A DNA stretch of 64,000 nucleotides, from assembly GCF_048403405.1 (NCBI RefSeq), contig NZ_CP183129.1. One strand, given 5' to 3'. Each line of letters starts with the position of its first letter. Position 1 is the stretch's first letter. Below are positions 21,263 to 63,797 of the stretch, one piece after another. The position numbers were made by a program, and so were the translations under genes. This DNA comes from Escherichia coli (lineage in GTDB: Bacteria > Pseudomonadota > Gammaproteobacteria > Enterobacterales > Enterobacteriaceae). The notes below the pieces were generated by a model. That model did no database searches. It saw nothing but the letters and a program-made list of their open reading frames with translations, and was not told the DNA's origin.

Positions 21263-22669
<1,407 letters not shown>

Positions 22670-22728
22670 TTATTCAGTCGATAGTAACCCGCCCTCCGGG
22701 GATAGCAAGCATTTTTTGCAAAAAGGGG

Positions 22729-22757
22729 TAGATGCAATCGGTTACGCTCTGTATAAT
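22729..22757 (+). promoter_or_regulatory. putative guaB promoter (-10 TATAAT at 22752-22757)
   Basis: Perfect TATAAT hexamer about 45 bp upstream of guaB ATG in the xseA-guaB divergent region. Confidence 0.4.
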
Positions 22758-22800
22758 GCCGCGGCAATATTTATTAACCACTCTGGTCGAGATATTGCCC

Positions 22801-24267
22801 ATGCTACGTATCGCTAAAGAAGCTCTGACGTTTGACGACGTTCTCCTCGTTCCTGCTCATTCTACCGTTCTGCCGAATACTGCTGACCTCAGCACCCAGC
22901 TGACGAAAACTATTCGTCTGAATATCCCTATGCTTTCCGCAGCAATGGATACCGTAACGGAAGCGCGCCTGGCTATTGCTCTGGCTCAGGAAGGCGGTAT
23001 CGGCTTTATCCACAAAAATATGTCCATTGAACGCCAGGCGGAAGAAGTTCGCCGTGTGAAAAAACACGAATCTGGCGTGGTGACTGACCCGCAGACTGTT
23101 CTGCCAACCACGACGCTGCGCGAAGTGAAAGAACTGACCGAGCGTAACGGCTTTGCGGGCTACCCGGTCGTTACCGAAGAAAACGAACTGGTGGGTATTA
23201 TCACCGGTCGTGACGTACGTTTTGTTACCGACCTGAGCCAGCCGGTTAGCGTTTACATGACGCCGAAAGAACGTCTGGTCACCGTGCGTGAAGGTGAAGC
23301 CCGTGAAGTTGTGCTGGCAAAAATGCACGAAAAACGCGTTGAAAAAGCGCTGGTGGTTGATGACGAATTCCACCTGATCGGCATGATCACCGTGAAAGAT
23401 TTCCAGAAAGCAGAACGTAAACCGAACGCCTGTAAAGACGAGCAAGGCCGTCTGCGTGTTGGTGCAGCGGTTGGCGCGGGTGCGGGTAACGAAGAGCGTG
23501 TTGACGCGCTGGTTGCCGCAGGCGTTGACGTTCTGCTGATCGACTCCTCTCACGGTCACTCTGAAGGCGTTCTGCAGCGTATCCGTGAAACTCGTGCTAA
23601 ATATCCGGATCTGCAAATCATCGGCGGCAACGTGGCAACAGCTGCGGGGGCACGCGCTCTGGCAGAAGCTGGTTGCAGCGCGGTTAAAGTCGGCATTGGC
23701 CCTGGCTCTATCTGTACGACTCGTATCGTGACTGGCGTAGGTGTTCCGCAGATCACCGCCGTTGCTGACGCCGTAGAAGCCCTGGAAGGCACCGGTATTC
23801 CGGTTATCGCTGACGGTGGTATCCGTTTCTCAGGCGATATCGCCAAAGCTATCGCCGCAGGTGCAAGCGCGGTAATGGTGGGTTCCATGCTGGCGGGTAC
23901 TGAAGAATCTCCGGGTGAAATCGAACTCTACCAGGGCCGTTCTTACAAATCTTACCGTGGGATGGGCTCTCTGGGTGCGATGTCCAAAGGTTCTTCTGAC
24001 CGTTACTTCCAGAGCGACAACGCTGCCGACAAACTGGTGCCGGAAGGTATCGAAGGTCGCGTGGCCTATAAAGGTCGCCTGAAAGAGATCATTCACCAGC
24101 AGATGGGCGGCCTGCGCTCCTGTATGGGCCTGACCGGCTGTGGTACTATCGACGAACTGCGTACTAAAGCGGAGTTTGTACGTATCAGCGGTGCGGGCAT
24201 TCAGGAAAGCCACGTTCACGACGTGACCATTACTAAAGAGTCCCCGAACTACCGTCTGGGCTCCTGA
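22801..24267 (+). CDS. guaB: IMP dehydrogenase
   Basis: 488 aa from ATG 22801 ([21 protein letters not shown]...); CBS pair and catalytic Cys loop ([11 protein letters not shown]); track ORF extends upstream to 22732. Confidence 0.95.
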
Positions 24268-24335
24268 TTCTCTTCGCCCGACTTCATGTCGGGCGATTTA
24301 TATTATCTGTTTCACTTGCCTCGGAATAAGCGTCA

Positions 24336-25913
24336 ATGACGGAAAACATTCATAAGCATCGCATCCTCATTCTGGACTTCGGTTCTCAGTACACTCAACT
24401 GGTTGCGCGCCGCGTGCGTGAACTGGGTGTTTACTGCGTACTGTGGGCGTGGGATGTGACAGAAGCACAAATTCGTGACTTCAACCCAAGCGGCATTATT
24501 CTTTCCGGCGGCCCGGAAAGCACCACCGAAGAAAACAGCCCGCGTGCGCCGCAGTATGTCTTTGAAGCAGGCGTACCGGTATTCGGCGTTTGCTATGGCA
24601 TGCAGACCATGGCAATGCAGTTGGGCGGTCACGTTGAAGCCTCTAACGAACGTGAATTTGGCTACGCGCAGGTTGAAGTCGTAAACGACAGCGCACTGGT
24701 TCGCGGTATCGAAGATGCGCTGACTGCAGACGGTAAACCGCTGCTCGATGTCTGGATGAGCCACGGCGATAAAGTTACCGCTATCCCGTCCGACTTCGTC
24801 ACCGTAGCCAGCACCGAAAGCTGCCCGTTTGCCATTATGGCCAACGAAGAAAAACGCTTCTACGGCGTACAGTTCCACCCGGAAGTGACTCACACCCGCC
24901 AGGGTATGCGCATGCTGGAGCGCTTTGTGCGTGATATCTGCCAGTGTGAAGCCCTGTGGACGCCGGCGAAAATTATCGACGACGCTGTAGCTCGCATCCG
25001 CGAGCAGGTGGGCGACGATAAAGTCATCCTCGGCCTTTCTGGTGGCGTGGATTCCTCCGTAACCGCAATGCTGCTGCACCGCGCTATCGGTAAAAACCTG
25101 ACTTGCGTATTCGTCGACAACGGCCTGCTGCGTCTCAACGAAGCAGAGCAGGTTCTGGATATGTTTGGCGATCACTTTGGTCTCAATATTGTTCACGTTC
25201 CGGCAGAAGATCGCTTCCTGTCAGCGCTGGCTGGCGAAAACGATCCGGAAGCAAAACGTAAAATCATCGGGCGCGTTTTCGTTGAAGTATTCGATGAAGA
25301 AGCGCTGAAACTGGAAGACGTGAAGTGGCTGGCGCAGGGTACTATCTACCCTGACGTTATCGAATCTGCGGCGTCTGCAACCGGTAAAGCACACGTCATC
25401 AAATCTCACCACAACGTGGGCGGCCTGCCGAAAGAGATGAAGATGGGCCTGGTTGAACCGCTGAAAGAGCTGTTCAAAGACGAAGTGCGTAAGATTGGTC
25501 TGGAGCTGGGCCTGCCGTACGACATGCTGTACCGTCATCCGTTCCCGGGACCAGGCCTTGGCGTTCGTGTTCTGGGTGAAGTGAAGAAAGAGTACTGTGA
25601 CCTGCTGCGCCGCGCTGACGCCATCTTCATTGAAGAACTGCGTAAAGCGGGCCTGTACGACAAAGTCAGCCAGGCGTTCACCGTCTTCCTGCCAGTACGT
25701 TCCGTTGGCGTAATGGGCGATGGTCGTAAGTATGACTGGGTTGTCTCTCTGCGTGCTGTCGAAACCATCGACTTTATGACCGCACACTGGGCGCATCTGC
25801 CGTACGATTTCCTCGGTCGCGTTTCCAACCGCATTATCAATGAAGTGAACGGTATTTCCCGCGTGGTGTATGACATCAGCGGCAAGCCGCCAGCTACCAT
25901 TGAGTGGGAATGA
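24336..25913 (+). CDS. guaA: GMP synthase (glutamine-hydrolysing)
   Basis: 525-aa ORF; N-terminal glutamine amidotransferase (GVCYGMQ), ATP-PPase SGGVDSSV motif. Confidence 0.95.
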
Positions 25914-25960
25914 TTAACAGCTAACTCATAGCAAATCATTCCTATTCAGATGCCAACTCA

Positions 25961-40702: not shown

Positions 40703-40779
40703 TGGCGTGGCATGCAGGATTCGAACCTGCGACCAACCGCTTAGAAGGCGGTTGCTCTGTCCAACTGAGCTAATGCCAC
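40703..40779 (-). tRNA. tRNA-Arg (anticodon UCU), phage-encoded, CCA end encoded
   Basis: Reverse complement GTGGCATTAGCTCAGTTGGACAGAGCAACCGCCTTCTAAGCGGTTGGTCGCAGGTTCGAATCCTGCATGCCACGCCA folds as cloverleaf; anticodon loop CTTCTAA; T-arm GGTTCGAATCC; close to E. coli argU. Confidence 0.85.
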
Positions 40780-57673: not shown

Positions 57674-57697
57674 CAAAAAAGCCCGCAGCGCGGGCTT
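57674..57697 (-). terminator. rho-independent terminator after small membrane protein gene
   Basis: agcccgc-agc-gcgggct hairpin with A-run on + strand (U-tract on - strand). Confidence 0.6.
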
Positions 57698-57929
57698 ACT
57701 TTTCTTCAGGTTTGTTGTCTTCAGATTTCTTCTTGATGCTTGGTTTTTGTCTAAGACCGAAAATACCAGCCACTGCAACAACTGTACCGATCACTGTGCC
57801 AGCTAGAACTTCATGACCTGTTAAACCTAATAATGTTGCACAAGCTACTGTAAAAATAGTTGCACTCAGGCCAAACCACTGCCCACGTTTATCTCTATTA
57901 ATAGCCCCGTCAAGTGCCTTTTCCTCCAT
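57696..57929 (-). CDS. small two-TM membrane protein
   Basis: 77-aa ORF; hydrophobic segments WFGLSATIFTVACATLLGL and VIGTVVAVAGIFGL; Lys-rich C-terminus. Confidence 0.45.
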   Translation of the reverse strand: MEEKALDGAINRDKRGQWFGLSATIFTVACATLLGLTGHEVLAGTVIGTVVAVAGIFGLRQKPSIKKKSEDNKPEEK

Positions 57930-58169
57930 TTTCTGGCGGTGAGCAAACTCCTTCTCCGTCAGCTGGAAGATGCGTTCGGGGGCATCAGGTAAAATATCCT
58001 GATACCCGCGAAGCAGATAGGGGGAGGAAGCGGACCCTGAAACGCATGGTGAGCGACAACTATCTCCTGAATTTCAGGGCGATCAAGAACTCTTGTGAAG
58101 GCATCTGGGTGTTGAATGATCTCGTTACTTAGCCCTTCCTCAACTTCCTCGAACTCAGTTTCTTCGTTA

Positions 58170-58496
58170 TCACTTGGTTGCCCAATAGATTTTTGCATAT
58201 TTGTCGAAGGACATTCCTTTAGCTTCTGGTTTTCCTCTTGCATTTGAGTTTTTCCCTGTCACTATTGCCCATTTTCCGCCAGCAGGCGCTGCAATTTTTT
58301 TTCCGTTCTTTACTATATATTCAGCATAAACACGATTTTCTGACCGTCTGAGATCGTCTCCGACCATATTCATGTCTCTTGATATAACTTTGACGACAGA
58401 GTCTCGGTTTAAAGCCTTGGCATAGTTGGAGCCAGGAACGATACCCAAAGGGGTGCCAGACTCTATAGCCAGCTCCTTGACATATCTTCTGCTCAT
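58170..58496 (-). CDS. hypothetical protein (possible small DNA-binding protein)
   Basis: 108-aa ORF from ATG 58496 (MSRRYVKELAIESG...); a perfect TTACC-N5-GGTAA site lies 22 bp upstream. Confidence 0.4.
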   Translation of the reverse strand: MSRRYVKELAIESGTPLGIVPGSNYAKALNRDSVVKVISRDMNMVGDDLRRSENRVYAEYIVKNGKKIAAPAGGKWAIVTGKNSNARGKPEAKGMSFDKYAKIYWATK

Positions 58497-58517
58497 ATGA
58501 ACCTCAACCAATCGACT

Positions 58518-58617: not shown

Positions 58618-59310
58618 TCAGAAGAACCCTGCTTTGTCGTTGATGTACTCCGCGTGCGTCTGGATATCACGCAGGCATTTGCTCACACCGACGATGTAGC
58701 AGAACATGGTGGTCAACTCCGCCGCCGCGCCCGATACGTCGTGCCCGTCTTCCTGTAACTGGTTTAGCAGATTCATCAGCAGTGAGTTCTCCGTCAGGCC
58801 GAGAACACCAGACGGCGAATGAATCAGGCTGCGGTAGCCGGGCTTCAGTGGGGCGCTGTAGGTTTTGTTCTCTACCTTCATTGCCTGCATCACTGCTGAT
58901 GCTGTGGCGTTGGCTACCTGGTCGGCAACCATCTTTATGCGTTCTTCCTGCGGGAGCGAGTTTTTAATGTAACTTCCGGTGCGGCGGATCTGAGGAAGAA
59001 CCTCACCTGTAACCCATTCAAGAAATCTGAATGCTCTCGTTCCCTCAGTCATTGCCTCTTTGCAACGCAGAATAAGGATGTAGAGACCTGATTCTGAAAC
59101 GATGGATAGTTCTTGTATTCCACCAGGGGTCTGTATTGAATACAGCCCCTTTTTGTTCCAGCCTTTTTTATCAAGTTTTCTCGCTTGTGTAACATCAATA
59201 TTCAAAGCATTGCACACATCTTTGGTGACAAACCAAGGTTCTCCGTCAATCATGAACATACGGATCTGGCAGGATGACTCAAAGGAAAAGATGGAAGGTT
59301 TGGTATTCAT
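58618..59310 (-). CDS. antirepressor, Bro-N domain plus C-terminal antirepressor domain
   Basis: N-terminus MNTKPSIFSFESSCQIRMFMIDGEPWFVTKDVCNALNI is a Bro-N/KilA-N-type signature; C-terminal domain has a paralog at 60693-60950. Confidence 0.7.
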   Translation of the reverse strand: MNTKPSIFSFESSCQIRMFMIDGEPWFVTKDVCNALNIDVTQARKLDKKGWNKKGLYSIQTPGGIQELSIVSESGLYILILRCKEAMTEGTRAFRFLEWVTGEVLPQIRRTGSYIKNSLPQEERIKMVADQVANATASAVMQAMKVENKTYSAPLKPGYRSLIHSPSGVLGLTENSLLMNLLNQLQEDGHDVSGAAAELTTMFCYIVGVSKCLRDIQTHAEYINDKAGFF

Positions 59311-59577
59311 AGCGATCACCTTTGTAGTTAGGTTAATCACCACCGCTGAGACCAATCAGATGGTGGTGAACTGTGCAGAGTTGGTCTTACCGGCTACAAA
59401 GGAACCCGGCGCACCTTTCGGTGCCCCCACACAGCCCACCATAGAATAGGTGCGCTTTACACATAAAAAAACCGCTTATGCGGCATATGTGCCTCTGTAG
59501 TAATCCGGGAGACCAATCCCGGCACTGGATTTTGCCAGTGCCCGATTACTATGGCACAAGAGGAGTGCAATGTAAAT

Positions 59578-59592
59578 TTACCGAAAAGGTAA
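59578..59592. promoter_or_regulatory. perfect TTACC-N5-GGTAA palindrome about 270 bp upstream of antirepressor
   Basis: TTACCGAAAAGGTAA. Confidence 0.5.
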
Positions 59593-59753
59593 TAATAAAT
59601 GCATAACTCACGTTATTTCAACCCTATATGGTTTGATTTATCCCATTTCAGAAAATACCTGCCTATTTTTTTGCCAGTATGCGTATACTTTCGATAGAAT
59701 GTTTACCCTAGAGGTAGTTGGGGGTGCCCGTGAACACGAAGAGAGCTACAGTA

Positions 59754-60173
59754 ATGCAGCATTTGAGGAAATCAGAAAAAAATAAAGACCATGAAATATT
59801 GAGTAAGGCCATTGTTCGGGCTTCCAATAATACTGTTATACCTCATGCTGAAGAGTCTGGACAGAAATTTCTTATTCGGTATTTCACTGAAAATAGTGCA
59901 GTTGAGGAGATTTTAAAACATCAGGGAGGGGAATTTAAATGTGGAAAACTGGCAGATTATGTTCGTCGTGAAACGTCTGAACAAGAAGTATATTATGCTG
60001 ATATTAATCATAAGTCAGGTGTGAAAATTGTAATAGGCTATTACACAACTCCCAAAAATGTTATGCATGAGGTCCCAAAGATGTCCGTCGAGAAATCTCA
60101 TGCAATCTCGCGCAGGATGTTTGCACGCACTGCCGAAGATATGGCTCAGGAGCTCTACGACGATGCTGAATAA
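59754..60173 (+). CDS. hypothetical protein, candidate partner of YafO-like toxin
   Basis: About 140 aa from ATG 59754; stop overlaps the start of the downstream gene (ATGCTGAATAA); low GC. Confidence 0.5.
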   Translation: MQHLRKSEKNKDHEILSKAIVRASNNTVIPHAEESGQKFLIRYFTENSAVEEILKHQGGEFKCGKLADYVRRETSEQEVYYADINHKSGVKIVIGYYTTPKNVMHEVPKMSVEKSHAISRRMFARTAEDMAQELYDDAE

Positions 60174-60668
60174 ATTCCAGGGGTTGGTTCACCCTGGAAT
60201 TTTTGGGAAGGACCCTGAGCTAATACCTATCAAAAACGCGTTCATAGATCACTGGCGCTACGGTCATCATAAGGATTTCGGAAAGGACACTCTGTTTCGG
60301 GATCCACCGAAAGAAATGCTGGAATATCACATACGCCACGTTCACGTAAACATCGGAAACTATACTGACAAGTTTGGTGAGAGCGGTACGGACAATGCTG
60401 GAAAAACTGGGCGTCTGGGAAGAAAGACAAGACCACTAACAAGCATAAAAAGATCCCAACCAGTGACGTGTATGTGATTTATCTGGTCACATCTGAACGC
60501 CATGCCTTCCTTCTGGATTATTGGGATGAACCAGCACATAAGACAGTAGAAATTGACGAGCAGAAGCAAAAATTAGTTGTCGAGTGTGACAGAATTTTGC
60601 GGCTGAAAAAGTTAGAATCCATGCCGCGCGATGCTAGTTTGTGGGACCCAGAATTTTACGACTGTTAA
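60163..60668 (+). pseudogene. YafO-like toxin gene interrupted by a frameshift (or sequencing error)
   Basis: N-terminal part in one frame (to 60477: ...FGKDTLFRDPPKEMLEYHIRHVHV) and C-terminal part in another (60381-60668: ...VYVIYLVTSERHAFLLDYWDEPAHK) both resemble E. coli YafO as I recall it; frames overlap 60381-60477. Confidence 0.45.
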
Positions 60669-60669
60669 T

Positions 60670-60694
60670 GGCCGCTTTCGCGGCCTTTAAATTT
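60670..60694. terminator. terminator hairpin (ggccgctttcgcggcc), copy 2
   Basis: Identical 16-bp hairpin to 57419-57434, followed by tttaaattt. Confidence 0.65.
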
Positions 60695-60950
60695 ACCGGG
60701 TTTGTTTTCGTAATTGTTCGGCACAATAGTCGAGATGTGTTTGCAGATCCCGCATAGACATCTGTGAGCTGGTGACGTAGTTAATCAGTGCAGTCAGTTC
60801 GGCAAGTGGGCCATCGACATTAAATCCATCCTTATCGAGATCCCGGAGTAATTTCATCAAGTGCGATCCCTCCACCAGTGACCTGACGCCTCCCGGCGTG
60901 TGAATCCTTTCGGTAAATCCGTCTTCCAGTGGATAGTGATACTGCTGCAT
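60693..60950 (-). CDS. free-standing antirepressor C-terminal-domain paralog
   Basis: About 85 aa from internal ATG (MQQYHYPLEDG...); shares L..LL..L..DG..V.G..AELT.....Y.......RD.QTH..Y pattern with the C-terminus of the 58618-59310 antirepressor. Confidence 0.5.
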   Translation of the reverse strand: MQQYHYPLEDGFTERIHTPGGVRSLVEGSHLMKLLRDLDKDGFNVDGPLAELTALINYVTSSQMSMRDLQTHLDYCAEQLRKQTR

Positions 60951-61145: not shown

Positions 61146-63797
61146 ATGACGGTCTCAACCGAAGTTGACCACAACGAATACACTGGTAACGGAGCTACGA
61201 CATCATTTCCGTATACCTTCCGTATTTTCAAAAAATCCGACCTGGTTGTTCAGGTGTCTGACCTGAACGGGAACGTAACAGAATTGGTTCTGGATACTGA
61301 CTACACAGTAACCAATGCTGGAGGATATAATGGCGGTAATGTAATTCTGTCGAAGGCGTTGGCTAACGGTTATCATATTTCTATATCACGAGAGCTCCCG
61401 GTTACGCAGGATACTGATTTGCGTAATCAGGGTAAGTTCTTCGCTGAGGTACATGAAGACGCGTTCGATAAACTGACAATGCTTATTCAAAAGTGTTTTT
61501 CATGGATGAGGTTAGCACTTATAAAACCAAGCATTCTGGCTAACTATTATGATGCAAAAAATAATAAGATATCAAATCTAGCAAATGCCACTGACAGAAA
61601 CGATGCTGTCAATAAAGGTTATGTTGATGATCTTTTTACTGGAGGTGTAACGCCTACACCTAACAGCGTTAAAAACGATATTTTTACAAATCACCAAAGA
61701 AAGATTGTAGCTACGATGCCGCTTCTTTTTCCTGAATATGATGCGATTATGGCTGCTAACCCGTCAGCAACTTATATGTATCCTCAAGGATTCTGCGTTA
61801 GCGAAGATTTGATATACATCACTTATCCATTTGAGCCTAAACAGACGAATAATGTCGTCGCAGTATTTAACATATCTGGTATTTATCAAGGTTATTTCTA
61901 TGTTCAGGCTGGCGGCCCAGGCTTCGCTGCTGAAGGAATCGTGGTTACGTCAGACTATGGCCCCAAAAAAATGTTTGTTGGTCACACAAACGGAATACTG
62001 CGTGAATTTAATATGGAGGGGGCATTATACGGAAGCAATCTGCCTCTTGTACAAAACCATGATGTTGGATTATTCAACCAGTTCAGCTACAGAAGAGGTA
62101 TATGGCTCGTTGAGCAGAATGCGCCAGAAGTAGGACAGAAAATCACAAGAACTGTACTTGCAGTGTTCGACAGTGGTTTCAATCGCCTGTCAACTATAAC
62201 GCTGCCGTTACATGATGTTGGGTATGTAACTAAAAGCACCTCACCTTATGCGCCTTATTTCAACAAGCGTCAGGGTATTGCGGTAGGTGATAACTACTTT
62301 GTCTGCGGCTATGGCGGCTTCATAGCTGATGGGGCAGGAAGCGCAGGATATAACGAATATCAGGGCAGCAAAGTTTTTAACCCTGACGGTACAAAGCGAA
62401 CTGAATCAATGCTTCATCCTCAGGCCATGATGGATTTAATGAAAGCCGCAGGATTGAACGTCACTCGCATAGAAAATGAAGGCGTTTGTGTTTCTCAGGA
62501 TGGAAAATCCATTTATTCACTTTACATTCATCAGGAAAGAACTGGCTCTGAACCTTACAATTCAGGTTTGGTTATTTTCGAAGATTTCTCCACTGATAAA
62601 GATGCTATCGATTTTACACCTGCATCCAGGCTTTACCGCGGATTTGATATCGATCACGCGAGCATTGGGGTATATCCCCGTAGTGCGAAGGGGATTGTTA
62701 ACCCTGTAGATGGTACGTTGTTCACTAACATGACTGAAATTCTTCGCTATATGCAGGAGATGAGTCAGAAGGCATTTAATTTTTACACAGGGACTGTCAG
62801 CATTGCTGATATATCTGGCGTGGCAATCCCTTCCAGCACATATGTTGAAATACTGAATGCGAATAATCAGACTTTTATAGTCAACTATTATTCATCTGAT
62901 AGTGGTATTAGTTATTTGGTTGCAACTAATCCTTCTGGTGACTTTGTATTTGTGCGCCAGCGACCGGCACAGTGGGCATCTAACTTAACCATTCAGCAAA
63001 ACGCAGATCCTGATACAAACCAATTAAACCGCATCACTGCATCATCATATGCCGGTGCAACTACAAACTCTCAGAAAATATTGGTCCTTGACCAGCAGGC
63101 TACAGCTAGCGCAAATAGCTTGGTATTGGGCGGTAGTTCTTCTGTGTTTAGGTCTGCCACCACGGTGGATATTGCATGCAACAGCGACCCGACAGCATTG
63201 GGAGGAACCATACGCTGGCGGTTTTATGATACAGGTCTTCGCCCGTTTGCTGACAATACCTATAATTTTGGTCAGGCATCGTTTCGTATTAAAGACGCCT
63301 ACTTTGCAAATGCCCCAACCGTTTCATCAGATGCCACGCTGAAAACCAATCCCGAGGCAATATCAGATTTAAGTGAAATGCTTTCTTCTGATAGAGACAG
63401 CATTCTTGATGCCTGGGGCGATATTTCTGTTGTGGCGTATCGATGGCTCGACGCTATATCCATGAAGGGCGATGGTGCCAGATGGCATTTTGGCGTCATG
63501 GCTCAGCAGGTAAGGGATGTATTCTTGGCGCACGGAATTGATGGAACCAGATTTGGCCTTCTTTGCTATGACGAGTGGGATGATATTTTTGAGCCGGTAA
63601 TCGCGACTAAAGAGATTACCGATACGTCTGGTGAGTTGGTCACCGTCGAATATGACACCGGAGAACAGAGGCTGGTTAAAAAAGCGGGTAGTTCATGGGG
63701 TATACGGCCTGACCAGTGCGCTTGGCTTGAGGCTGCATATCAGCGCCGTCGATGCGATCGTATTGAAGAGCGACTCGAACTATTGGAATCAAAATAA
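61146..63797 (+). CDS. tailspike/tail fiber with N-terminal podovirus adaptor domain and C-terminal intramolecular chaperone (peptidase S74-like) domain
   Basis: 883-aa ORF; N-terminus resembles T7 gp17 N-terminal domain pattern; C-terminal ~130 aa resemble self-cleaving chaperone domains of endosialidase-type tailspikes. Confidence 0.8.
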   Translation: MTVSTEVDHNEYTGNGATTSFPYTFRIFKKSDLVVQVSDLNGNVTELVLDTDYTVTNAGGYNGGNVILSKALANGYHISISRELPVTQDTDLRNQGKFFAEVHEDAFDKLTMLIQKCFSWMRLALIKPSILANYYDAKNNKISNLANATDRNDAVNKGYVDDLFTGGVTPTPNSVKNDIFTNHQRKIVATMPLLFPEYDAIMAANPSATYMYPQGFCVSEDLIYITYPFEPKQTNNVVAVFNISGIYQGYFYVQAGGPGFAAEGIVVTSDYGPKKMFVGHTNGILREFNMEGALYGSNLPLVQNHDVGLFNQFSYRRGIWLVEQNAPEVGQKITRTVLAVFDSGFNRLSTITLPLHDVGYVTKSTSPYAPYFNKRQGIAVGDNYFVCGYGGFIADGAGSAGYNEYQGSKVFNPDGTKRTESMLHPQAMMDLMKAAGLNVTRIENEGVCVSQDGKSIYSLYIHQERTGSEPYNSGLVIFEDFSTDKDAIDFTPASRLYRGFDIDHASIGVYPRSAKGIVNPVDGTLFTNMTEILRYMQEMSQKAFNFYTGTVSIADISGVAIPSSTYVEILNANNQTFIVNYYSSDSGISYLVATNPSGDFVFVRQRPAQWASNLTIQQNADPDTNQLNRITASSYAGATTNSQKILVLDQQATASANSLVLGGSSSVFRSATTVDIACNSDPTALGGTIRWRFYDTGLRPFADNTYNFGQASFRIKDAYFANAPTVSSDATLKTNPEAISDLSEMLSSDRDSILDAWGDISVVAYRWLDAISMKGDGARWHFGVMAQQVRDVFLAHGIDGTRFGLLCYDEWDDIFEPVIATKEITDTSGELVTVEYDTGEQRLVKKAGSSWGIRPDQCAWLEAAYQRRRCDRIEERLELLESK

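What the first reader, a model, noticed from the sequence alone, without database searches (positions are those of the whole stretch)
59754..60668. Two-gene toxin-antitoxin-like pair with a YafO-like toxin split by a frameshift
The downstream gene resembles the YafO toxin family in two blocks that sit in different reading frames: FGKDTLFRDPPKEMLEYHIRHVHV in the frame ending at 60477, and VYVIYLVTSERHAFLLDYWDEPAHK in the frame open from 60381 to 60668. Compare FGRDALYDD...RVAHIHL and HLVYCQGAFDEQAWLLIAILQPEPHK in E. coli YafO as I recall it. The frames overlap over 60381-60477, so a single indel would restore an intact toxin of about 168 aa. The upstream ~140-aa gene overlaps its start (ATGCTGAATAA) as in coupled TA pairs, yet is larger than and unlike the usual YafN-type antitoxin. 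This may be an inactivated toxin with a novel partner, a programmed frameshift or a sequencing error.
Basis: partly seen in the sequence, partly recalled or inferred. Interest (0 to 1): 0.6.

Follow-up and report, generated by a model that had tools for sequence, protein, structure and literature searches.

The report
Frameshifted YafO-like prophage toxin gene pair
A two-gene toxin–antitoxin-like module carried by an E. coli prophage has its toxin gene (a distant relative of the YafO RNase toxin) broken by the loss of one base that no other sequenced relative lacks, so the break is an ordinary private mutation or sequencing error; the uncharacterised partner protein, with a swappable front half, is the more interesting part.

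Summary
The two blocks lie in two frames (60163-60477 and 60381-60668). One inserted A at 60391/60392 (GGAC to GGAAC) restores a 168-aa protein. That intact form is present in 57/57 complete E. coli genomes and 38/38 viral contigs that carry the gene.

The upstream 147-aa gene overlaps the toxin start by 11 nt in every relative. It has no known domain and is unrelated to YafN. Its last ~35 residues track the toxin (r 0.97). Its N-terminal ~100 residues are a sharply bounded, exchangeable cassette.

The module sits in an epsilon15/phiV10-like prophage, between the antirepressor and tailspike genes.

Verdict:
- The toxin is most likely a recent pseudogene (about 0.6).
- A sequencing error is the main rival (about 0.3).
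- A programmed frameshift is not supported.

The broken gene is ordinary. The module is an uncharacterised variant of a known kind.

The parts
59671..59700 (+). sigma-70-like promoter candidate for the two-gene operon (TTGCCA-18-TAGAAT)
   Evidence: It matches 10 of 12 consensus positions. DNA here is 90-98% identical to a prophage that carries a different partner cassette. This is a consensus match only and has not been tested.
59730..60173 (+). upstream partner gene (putative antitoxin), 147 aa from GTG 59730, or 139 aa from ATG 59754
   Evidence: The translation is identical to WP_224171553.1 'hypothetical protein'. It matches phrog_9503, of unknown function. It has no Pfam, NCBIfam or PADLOC hit. 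An upstream ORF overlapping or abutting the toxin start is present in 38/38 viral loci.
59751..60070 (+). exchangeable N-terminal cassette of the partner gene (approximate limits)
   Evidence: DNA identity to locus L009 falls from 95% to 22-53% across this stretch and returns to 97-100% after about 60087. Several unrelated N-terminal types are joined to the same tail.
60063..60173 (+). conserved C-terminal tail of the partner (VPKMSVEKSHAISRRMFARTAEDMAQELYDDAE), the proposed toxin-binding segment
   Evidence: It is near-invariant across partners with unrelated N-termini. Tails from all toxin subgroups align ungapped. Tail identity tracks toxin identity with r 0.97. In a fused partner-linker-toxin AlphaFold model the tail has pLDDT 90-97, against 52-67 for the N-terminal part.
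60163..60390 (+). toxin gene, native codons 1-76
   Evidence: It is identical to the intact allele of FDAARGOS_497. It contains the FGKD and RHVHV motifs and conserved residues F27, G40, D42, P49 and H61.
60391..60392 (+). site of the single-base deletion (GGAAC to GGAC)
   Evidence: Shown. None of the 57 complete E. coli genomes carrying this stretch has the deletion. The three metagenome/Logan contigs examined have GGAAC.
60391..60477 (+). out-of-frame continuation (28 codons, DNAGKTGRLGRKTRPLTSIKRSQPVTCM) and premature stop of the truncated 104-aa product
   Evidence: Shown. The exact 104-aa and 139-aa products are absent from the collection of about 15 billion proteins.
60393..60668 (+). 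toxin gene, native codons 78-168 plus stop, now in another frame
   Evidence: Shown. It carries conserved residues W80, S101, Y107 and H126, two of the four core beta strands and the C-terminal helix of the model.
60670..60685 (+). terminator-like hairpin (GGCCGCTTTCGCGGCC followed by TTTAAATTTA) directly after the toxin stop
   Evidence: Found. This is a consensus match only.

Best explanation
This is a prophage accessory ('moron') operon of two translationally coupled genes. The downstream gene encodes, in its intact form, a 168-aa RelE-superfamily toxin that is a distant, enlarged relative of YafO. It most likely acts as an mRNA endonuclease that blocks translation. The upstream gene encodes its partner. 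The partner's conserved C-terminal ~35 residues most likely bind and neutralise the toxin, as the C-terminal tails of classical type II antitoxins do. The partner's N-terminal ~100 residues are an exchangeable cassette of unknown role. In this genome one A has been lost from GGAAC at 60391/60392. Translation stops after 76 native and 28 foreign residues, and the product lacks half of the fold and the conserved W80, S101, Y107 and H126. The toxin is therefore a recent, private pseudogene and the partner is left intact. Shown here: the deletion, its uniqueness, the remote homology to YafO, the predicted fold, the conserved gene pairing and the cassette architecture. Inferred: RNase activity, neutralisation by the tail, and that the deletion is biological rather than a sequencing error.
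Against: The repaired protein has no Pfam or NCBIfam hit, so 'YafO family' rests on remote-homology methods and the RefSeq name. No coordinates or PAE were available for the fused model, so tail-toxin contact is not shown. No toxicity or rescue data exist. The toxin gene shows no further decay and the allele is seen nowhere else, which fits a sequencing error as well as a very recent mutation. Over 11 kb the prophage differs from its closest relative by 2 substitutions and 2 one-base deletions, an indel-rich ratio.
Confidence: 0.6

Rival explanations
1. Sequencing or assembly error: the strain really carries GGAAC and an intact, functional toxin, so the split exists only in the deposited sequence.
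For: The deletion is private: 0/57 genomes, and the exact truncated products are absent from the protein collection. The rest of the gene is identical to the intact allele. A second one-base deletion lies 2.4 kb away in a G6 run, a classic error context.
Against: The 25.9 kb of chromosome in the same window has zero indels against several near-identical genomes. A uniform error rate of 2 per 11 kb would predict about 5 there. The AA context is not a long homopolymer. The product of the G5 allele at 58019 recurs in independent assemblies, so that deletion is probably real.
Confidence: 0.3
2. Programmed or tolerated -1 frameshifting: ribosomes or RNA polymerase slip inside the 60381-60477 overlap and make a full-length toxin at a regulated low level.
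For: The two frames overlap by 97 nt. An A5 run (60402-60406, GGAAAAAC) lies inside the overlap, where tRNA-Lys could slip back by one base (sequence).
Against: Every relative encodes the protein in one frame, so the shift is derived and not conserved. There is no X XXY YYZ heptamer. Slipping at the A5 run would replace EQCW with DNAG, removing W80 (90% or more of 61 homologues) and C79 (invariant among the 11 closest relatives).
Confidence: 0.02
3. The pair is not a toxin-antitoxin system: the upstream protein is a regulator, chaperone or co-effector, or the 168-aa protein has lost RNase activity and serves another prophage function.
For: The partner has no antitoxin-type domain in any of 18 variants and no similarity to YafN. 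No operator-like repeats lie in the promoter region. PADLOC has no match.
Against: The strict antitoxin-toxin gene order and overlap hold even for the most distant homologues, which have 60-69-aa partners. The tail co-varies with the toxin. The residues conserved across 61 homologues include two histidines and a tyrosine, a residue set common in RelE-type active sites (my own knowledge). The toxin has been independently disrupted here and in L067.
Confidence: 0.08

Closest known systems
E. coli K-12 YafN-YafO (dinB operon), Pfam PF13957, RelE/ParE BECR-fold superfamily
   Same: It has antitoxin-then-toxin order with coupled genes. The motifs are collinear (F..FG[KR]D, H.H, TSD..L[IV]Y, (P)AHK) over the whole YafO domain. 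YafO is listed among the 13 BECR-fold type II toxin families as an mRNA-degrading toxin (PMC11980606).
   Different: Sequence identity is about 20%, and the window protein does not match PF13957. It is 168 rather than 132 aa, with an insertion of about 35 residues (around 65-98, where the frameshift lies) and a longer C-terminus. The partner is not a Phd/YefM-type YafN. The module is prophage-borne rather than in the SOS-regulated dinB operon.
HigB2 / HigB1 / RelE / YoeB / YafQ toxins (solved structures)
   Different: There is no detectable sequence similarity to any PDB chain, and Foldseek against the PDB is not significant. The window protein is about 60-80 residues larger.
PHROG families phrog_1651 (toxin) and phrog_9503 (partner)
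   Same: Both match directly: E 6.8e-46 and 4.3e-88. The proteins are therefore already catalogued as phage proteins.
   Different: Both PHROGs carry no functional annotation. Partners of other toxin subgroups fall in other PHROGs (phrog_5933) or in none.
Type II or fused toxin-antitoxin defence systems whose antitoxin part senses phage proteins (e.g. CapRel-SJ46; from my own knowledge, not tested here)
   Same: The module is prophage-encoded. A conserved toxin is joined to a neutralising element whose other part is highly variable between close relatives.
   Different: There is no sequence or fold relationship. A sensing role for the variable cassette is pure inference.

Membership tests
YafO toxin family (Pfam PF13957) | Significant match to the PF13957 profile | tested here: not met
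   The repaired 168-aa protein gives no hit even at E<=10. Six of 11 close relatives hit at E<=0.1, with the best at 2.1e-3, and none reaches E<=0.001. One relative (P0005) has a precomputed PF13957 hit.
YafO toxin family (Pfam PF13957) | Homology to canonical YafO detectable by profile methods over the whole domain | tested here: met
   hhalign of the clade against 14 canonical YafO proteins gives E 3e-5, probability 73% and 109 columns. With four bridging PF13957-positive sequences it gives E 1.8e-15 and probability 98.5%. The clade profile finds PF13957-positive proteins at E about 1e-4 among 1.84 billion proteins.
YafO toxin family (Pfam PF13957) | YafN (Phd/YefM-type) antitoxin encoded upstream | tested here: not met
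   No Pfam domain is found in 18 partner variants. BLASTP and hhalign against YafN find nothing. The tail HMM scores YafN no better than shuffled sequences, with 417 of 2000 shuffles as good.
RelE/ParE (BECR-fold) toxin superfamily | RelE-type fold | tested here: met
RelE/ParE (BECR-fold) toxin superfamily | mRNA cleavage and translation arrest | not testable with these tools
   This needs expression of the intact allele and mapping of RNA ends.
Type II toxin-antitoxin system | Two small co-oriented, coupled genes conserved as a pair | tested here: met
   The genes overlap by 11 nt here. All 38 viral loci have an upstream ORF: 37 overlap the toxin start by 11 or 14 nt and one ends 5 nt before it. 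The same pairing is seen in E. coli, Klebsiella and metagenome loci.
Type II toxin-antitoxin system | Protein antitoxin binds and neutralises the toxin | tested here: inconclusive
   The evidence is indirect: tail-toxin co-variation with r 0.97 and a high-confidence tail in the fused model. No contact map or experiment is available.
Type II toxin-antitoxin system | Autoregulation through operator binding | tested here: inconclusive
   No inverted or direct repeats were found in 59540-59770. Unrelated N-terminal cassettes sit behind a 90-98% identical promoter region, which argues against cassette-specific operators there.
Programmed ribosomal frameshift | Frameshift conserved among homologues, with a slippery site | tested here: not met
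   None of the 57 genomes or 38 viral loci has the shift. The site reads ACG GAC AAT with no slippery heptamer.

The most novel reading that the evidence does not exclude
The partner's sharply bounded, exchangeable N-terminal cassette is a trigger-sensing domain. When a particular incoming phage is recognised, the conserved tail releases the YafO-like RNase and the infected lysogen aborts the infection. Swapping cassettes between prophages would then re-target the specificity. This would be a modular, prophage-borne defence system in the antirepressor-tailspike hotspot, and this lysogen would have lost it through the frameshift.
Probability: 0.2. Interest if true: 0.7.

Novelty: new variant of a known kind. 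Interest (0 to 1): 0.38.

Why it matters
The broken gene itself matters little. It is one more inactivated toxin in a prophage, or a base-calling slip.

The module behind it is more useful:
- It extends the small YafO family (about 1,000 Pfam members according to PMC11980606; only 71 representatives found here among 1.84 billion proteins) to an enlarged, prophage-borne branch that Pfam misses.
- It pairs that branch with an uncharacterised partner that has a constant toxin-linked tail and a replaceable front half.

If the tail is the neutralising element, it is a compact handle for studying how YafO-type toxins are inhibited; sequence searches of the PDB with this clade's profile found no solved relative. 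If the cassette senses something, the system would be a simple model for how toxin-antitoxin defence modules change their trigger.

Tried and rejected
- Pfam, NCBIfam and PADLOC scans of the repaired toxin, both fragments and the partner found nothing significant.
- I tested by eye-led alignment whether the partner tail resembles the YafN C-terminus (h-[ST]-x6-h-[ST]-R-R, with the same distance to the C-terminus). It failed every statistical test: Smith-Waterman shuffles p about 0.09, tail HMM no better than shuffles, BLASTP and hhalign negative. I rejected it as evidence.
- No operator-like repeats were found in the promoter region.
- An exact look-up of the truncated 104-aa and 139-aa products, intended to find the same allele elsewhere, found neither.
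- The 66-aa C-terminal ORF is in the collection, but the three contigs carrying it have the intact GGAAC and were split for other reasons: an N gap, a contig end, and a different A5-to-A4 frameshift.
- The search for related loci with the broad 61-sequence alignment failed for lack of conserved stretches. The 11-sequence alignment worked.
- Window 25001-50000 is mosaic relative to all genomes, so it was useless for counting indels.
- No coordinates or PAE were returned for the fused model, so tail-toxin contacts could not be measured.
- Literature searches for YafO with tailspike, or for YafO-like prophage modules, found nothing specific.

Full report
**1. The observation**

- From ATG 60163 one frame gives 76 residues ending ...NIGNYTDKFGESGT. 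It then runs on for 28 unrelated residues to a stop at 60475-60477.
- A second frame, open from 60381 to 60668, holds ...CWKNWASGKKDK...DVYVIYLVTSERHAFLLDYWDEPAHK...EFYDC.
- The upstream ORF (GTG 59730, or ATG 59754, to TAA 60171-60173) overlaps the ATG by 11 nt in GACGATGCTGAATAA.

**2. The cause of the split**

A megablast of 59600-60750 against 5,426 complete E. coli genomes found full-length matches at 99.4% identity. In these, RefSeq annotates one 507-nt gene, 'type II toxin-antitoxin system YafO family toxin', preceded by a 444-nt 'hypothetical protein'.

The three-way alignment shows one difference inside the toxin gene between the window and strain FDAARGOS_497. Relatives read GGTACGGAACAATG and the window reads GGTACGG-ACAATG. 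Adding the A restores the 168-aa protein WP_024946528.1. The partner protein is identical to WP_224171553.1.

An 80-base probe centred on the site matched 57 genomes, and all 57 have the extra base. All 38 related loci found in viral contigs have an uninterrupted toxin ORF of 163-171 aa. The deletion is therefore derived and private.

**3. Real mutation or error?**

Evidence on the indel pattern:
- Between 49664 and 60689 the window differs from FDAARGOS_497 by only two substitutions and two one-base deletions. One is the toxin deletion. The other turns G6 into G5 at 58019, inside a DUF2335 gene.
- That G5 allele is also absent from 67 complete genomes. However, its exact 94-aa truncated product is recorded in 10 or more independent Logan assemblies and one NCBI assembly. 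It is probably a recurrent real polymorphism.
- The first 25.9 kb of the window is chromosome up to guaA, where the prophage begins. The first 25 kb match several genomes at 100.0% and equal length, and bases 22,280-25,915 match E. coli MS 69-1 at 99.97% with no gaps. MS 69-1 has the empty guaA-yfgI site.
- An error process giving 2 indels in 11 kb would be expected to leave about 5 in that stretch.

I therefore favour a genuine, recent mutation. It is recent because the rest of the gene is undecayed. I cannot exclude an error, because the allele is seen nowhere else and the exact 104-aa and 139-aa products are not in the protein collection.

The three contigs that carry the 66-aa C-terminal ORF have the intact GGAAC. 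One of them has a different frameshift, A5 to A4.

**4. Programmed frameshift**

Nothing supports it.
- The shift is not conserved.
- The site (ACG GAC AAT) is not slippery.
- The only slippage-prone element in the overlap is an A5 run at 60402-60406. It would give a protein with EQCW replaced by DNAG. That removes W80, which is conserved in at least 90% of 61 homologues, and C79, which is invariant among the 11 closest relatives.

**5. What the intact protein is**

Pfam and NCBIfam do not match it. The YafO relationship is nevertheless real, though remote.
- Six of eleven close relatives give sub-threshold PF13957 hits.
- A profile of the clade, searched against 1.84 billion representatives, found only 71 proteins. 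Its weakest hits include P0107, P0108, P0109 and P0102, which are significant relatives of K-12 YafO by phmmer. P0107 and P0102 carry precomputed PF13957 hits.
- hhalign of the clade against 14 canonical YafO proteins gives E 3e-5 over 109 collinear columns. Adding the four bridging sequences gives E 1.8e-15, probability 98.5%.
- The AlphaFold model is confident: pLDDT 96.5, pTM 0.91.
- Foldseek against AFDB50 runs from the clade itself through models named 'Toxin YafO', including an E. coli one, to RelE/ParE.

YafO is one of the 13 BECR-fold toxin families of type II modules and degrades mRNA (PMC11980606).

Compared with YafO, this protein has an insertion of about 35 residues (around 65-98) and a longer C-terminus. 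The frameshift falls at codon 77, inside the insertion. The truncated product keeps two beta strands and H61. It loses W80, S101, Y107 and H126, two strands and the long C-terminal helix. It cannot be a working toxin.

**6. The partner**

None of 18 partner variants has a Pfam domain. There is no similarity to YafN by BLASTP, hhalign or a tail HMM. It belongs to phrog_9503, of unknown function.

Its architecture is distinctive.
- The last ~35 residues (VPKMSVEKSHAISRRMFARTAEDMAQELYDDAE) are nearly invariant among partners whose first 100-140 residues are only about 40% identical or unrelated.
- At the DNA level, identity to another E. coli prophage is 90-98% through the promoter and the first few codons. 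It drops to 22-53% between about 59751 and 60070, and returns to 97-100% through the tail and toxin.
- Over 25 distinct pairs, tail identity tracks toxin identity (r 0.97). Among pairs whose toxins are at least 90% identical, tails are 91-100% identical while N-terminal parts range from 23 to 100%.
- Distant toxin homologues have short partners of 60-69 aa that consist of little more than a tail with the same h-[ST]-x6-h-S-R motif. The similarity is significant among partner tails (p 0.001 or lower for two comparisons, about 0.02 for a third).
- In a fused partner-linker-toxin AlphaFold model the tail is confident (pLDDT 90-97). The N-terminal part is not (52-67) and the linker is disordered. 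I could not see contacts.

I infer that the tail is the toxin-neutralising element. The N-terminal cassette does something else. It is unlikely to be a cassette-specific operator binder, because unrelated cassettes share one promoter region and no operator-like repeats are present.

**7. Context**

The window carries an epsilon15/phiV10-like podovirus prophage inserted after guaA. The operon has its own promoter-like site (59671-59700) and a terminator-like hairpin (60670-60685). It lies between a BRO-N antirepressor gene on the minus strand (58618-59355) and the tailspike gene (61146-63797).

The same slot in Klebsiella P22-like prophages, next to Arc/Ant, and in other E. coli prophages holds the same module. 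One E. coli prophage has two different YafO-like pairs flanking its ant gene. Among 50,697 phage records only three hold a relative. I found no paper describing the module.

**8. Verdict**

The finding is accurate and its main reading holds. The frameshift is an ordinary private lesion, or an error. The module is an uncharacterised variant of a known kind: a RelE-superfamily, YafO-related toxin with a non-YafN partner built from a constant tail and an exchangeable front. Its mechanism is inferred, not shown.

Noticed in passing
window 59359-59554 (- strand): Rfam finds a C4 antisense RNA (RF01695, 78.6 bits, 59359-59446), isrK (RF01394, 74.7 bits, 59465-59541) and a sub-threshold c4 a1/b1 target element (59502-59554). 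They lie just upstream of the BRO-N antirepressor ORF (58618-59355, - strand). This looks like P1/P7-type antisense control of an antirepressor, divergent from the toxin operon.
   Followed up: partly
window 58019 (DUF2335 gene, about 57695-58243, - strand): A second one-base deletion (G6 to G5) truncates a DUF2335 membrane-protein gene to 94 aa. None of 67 complete E. coli genomes share it. The exact truncated product does occur in 10 or more independent Logan assemblies and GCA_949813155.1, which suggests a recurrent homopolymer polymorphism. Both one-base deletions in this 11-kb stretch hit accessory genes next to the antirepressor.
   Followed up: partly
L055 (E. coli strain 2/0, NZ_CP023853.1 2816337-2821417): This prophage carries two different YafO-like pairs flanking its ant gene. 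One is a 168-aa toxin with a 175-aa partner, and the other a 170-aa toxin with a 108-aa partner. The slot appears to be a hotspot for such modules.
   Followed up: no
L067 (Logan SRR10211216), equivalent to window 60451: There is an independent frameshift in the same toxin gene (A5 to A4) in another sample. This suggests either recurrent inactivation or a homopolymer error.
   Followed up: no
window 60693-60950 (- strand): An 85-aa ORF (WP_001188253-like, phrog_450) resembles the C-terminal part of phage antirepressors (phrog_1760, E 6.6e-7) and the C-terminus of the neighbouring BRO-N protein. It may be an antirepressor fragment or a small regulator.
   Followed up: no
window about 25916 and 40703-40779: The prophage starts right after guaA, and E. 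coli MS 69-1 has the empty guaA-yfgI site. A tRNA-Arg(tct) gene lies inside the prophage on the minus strand.
   Followed up: partly
window 58170-58511 (- strand): A gene of about 108 aa (phrog_10654, unknown function) overlaps the start of the DUF2335 gene by about 74 nt in relatives. It may form a second two-gene accessory module on the other side of the antirepressor.
   Followed up: no
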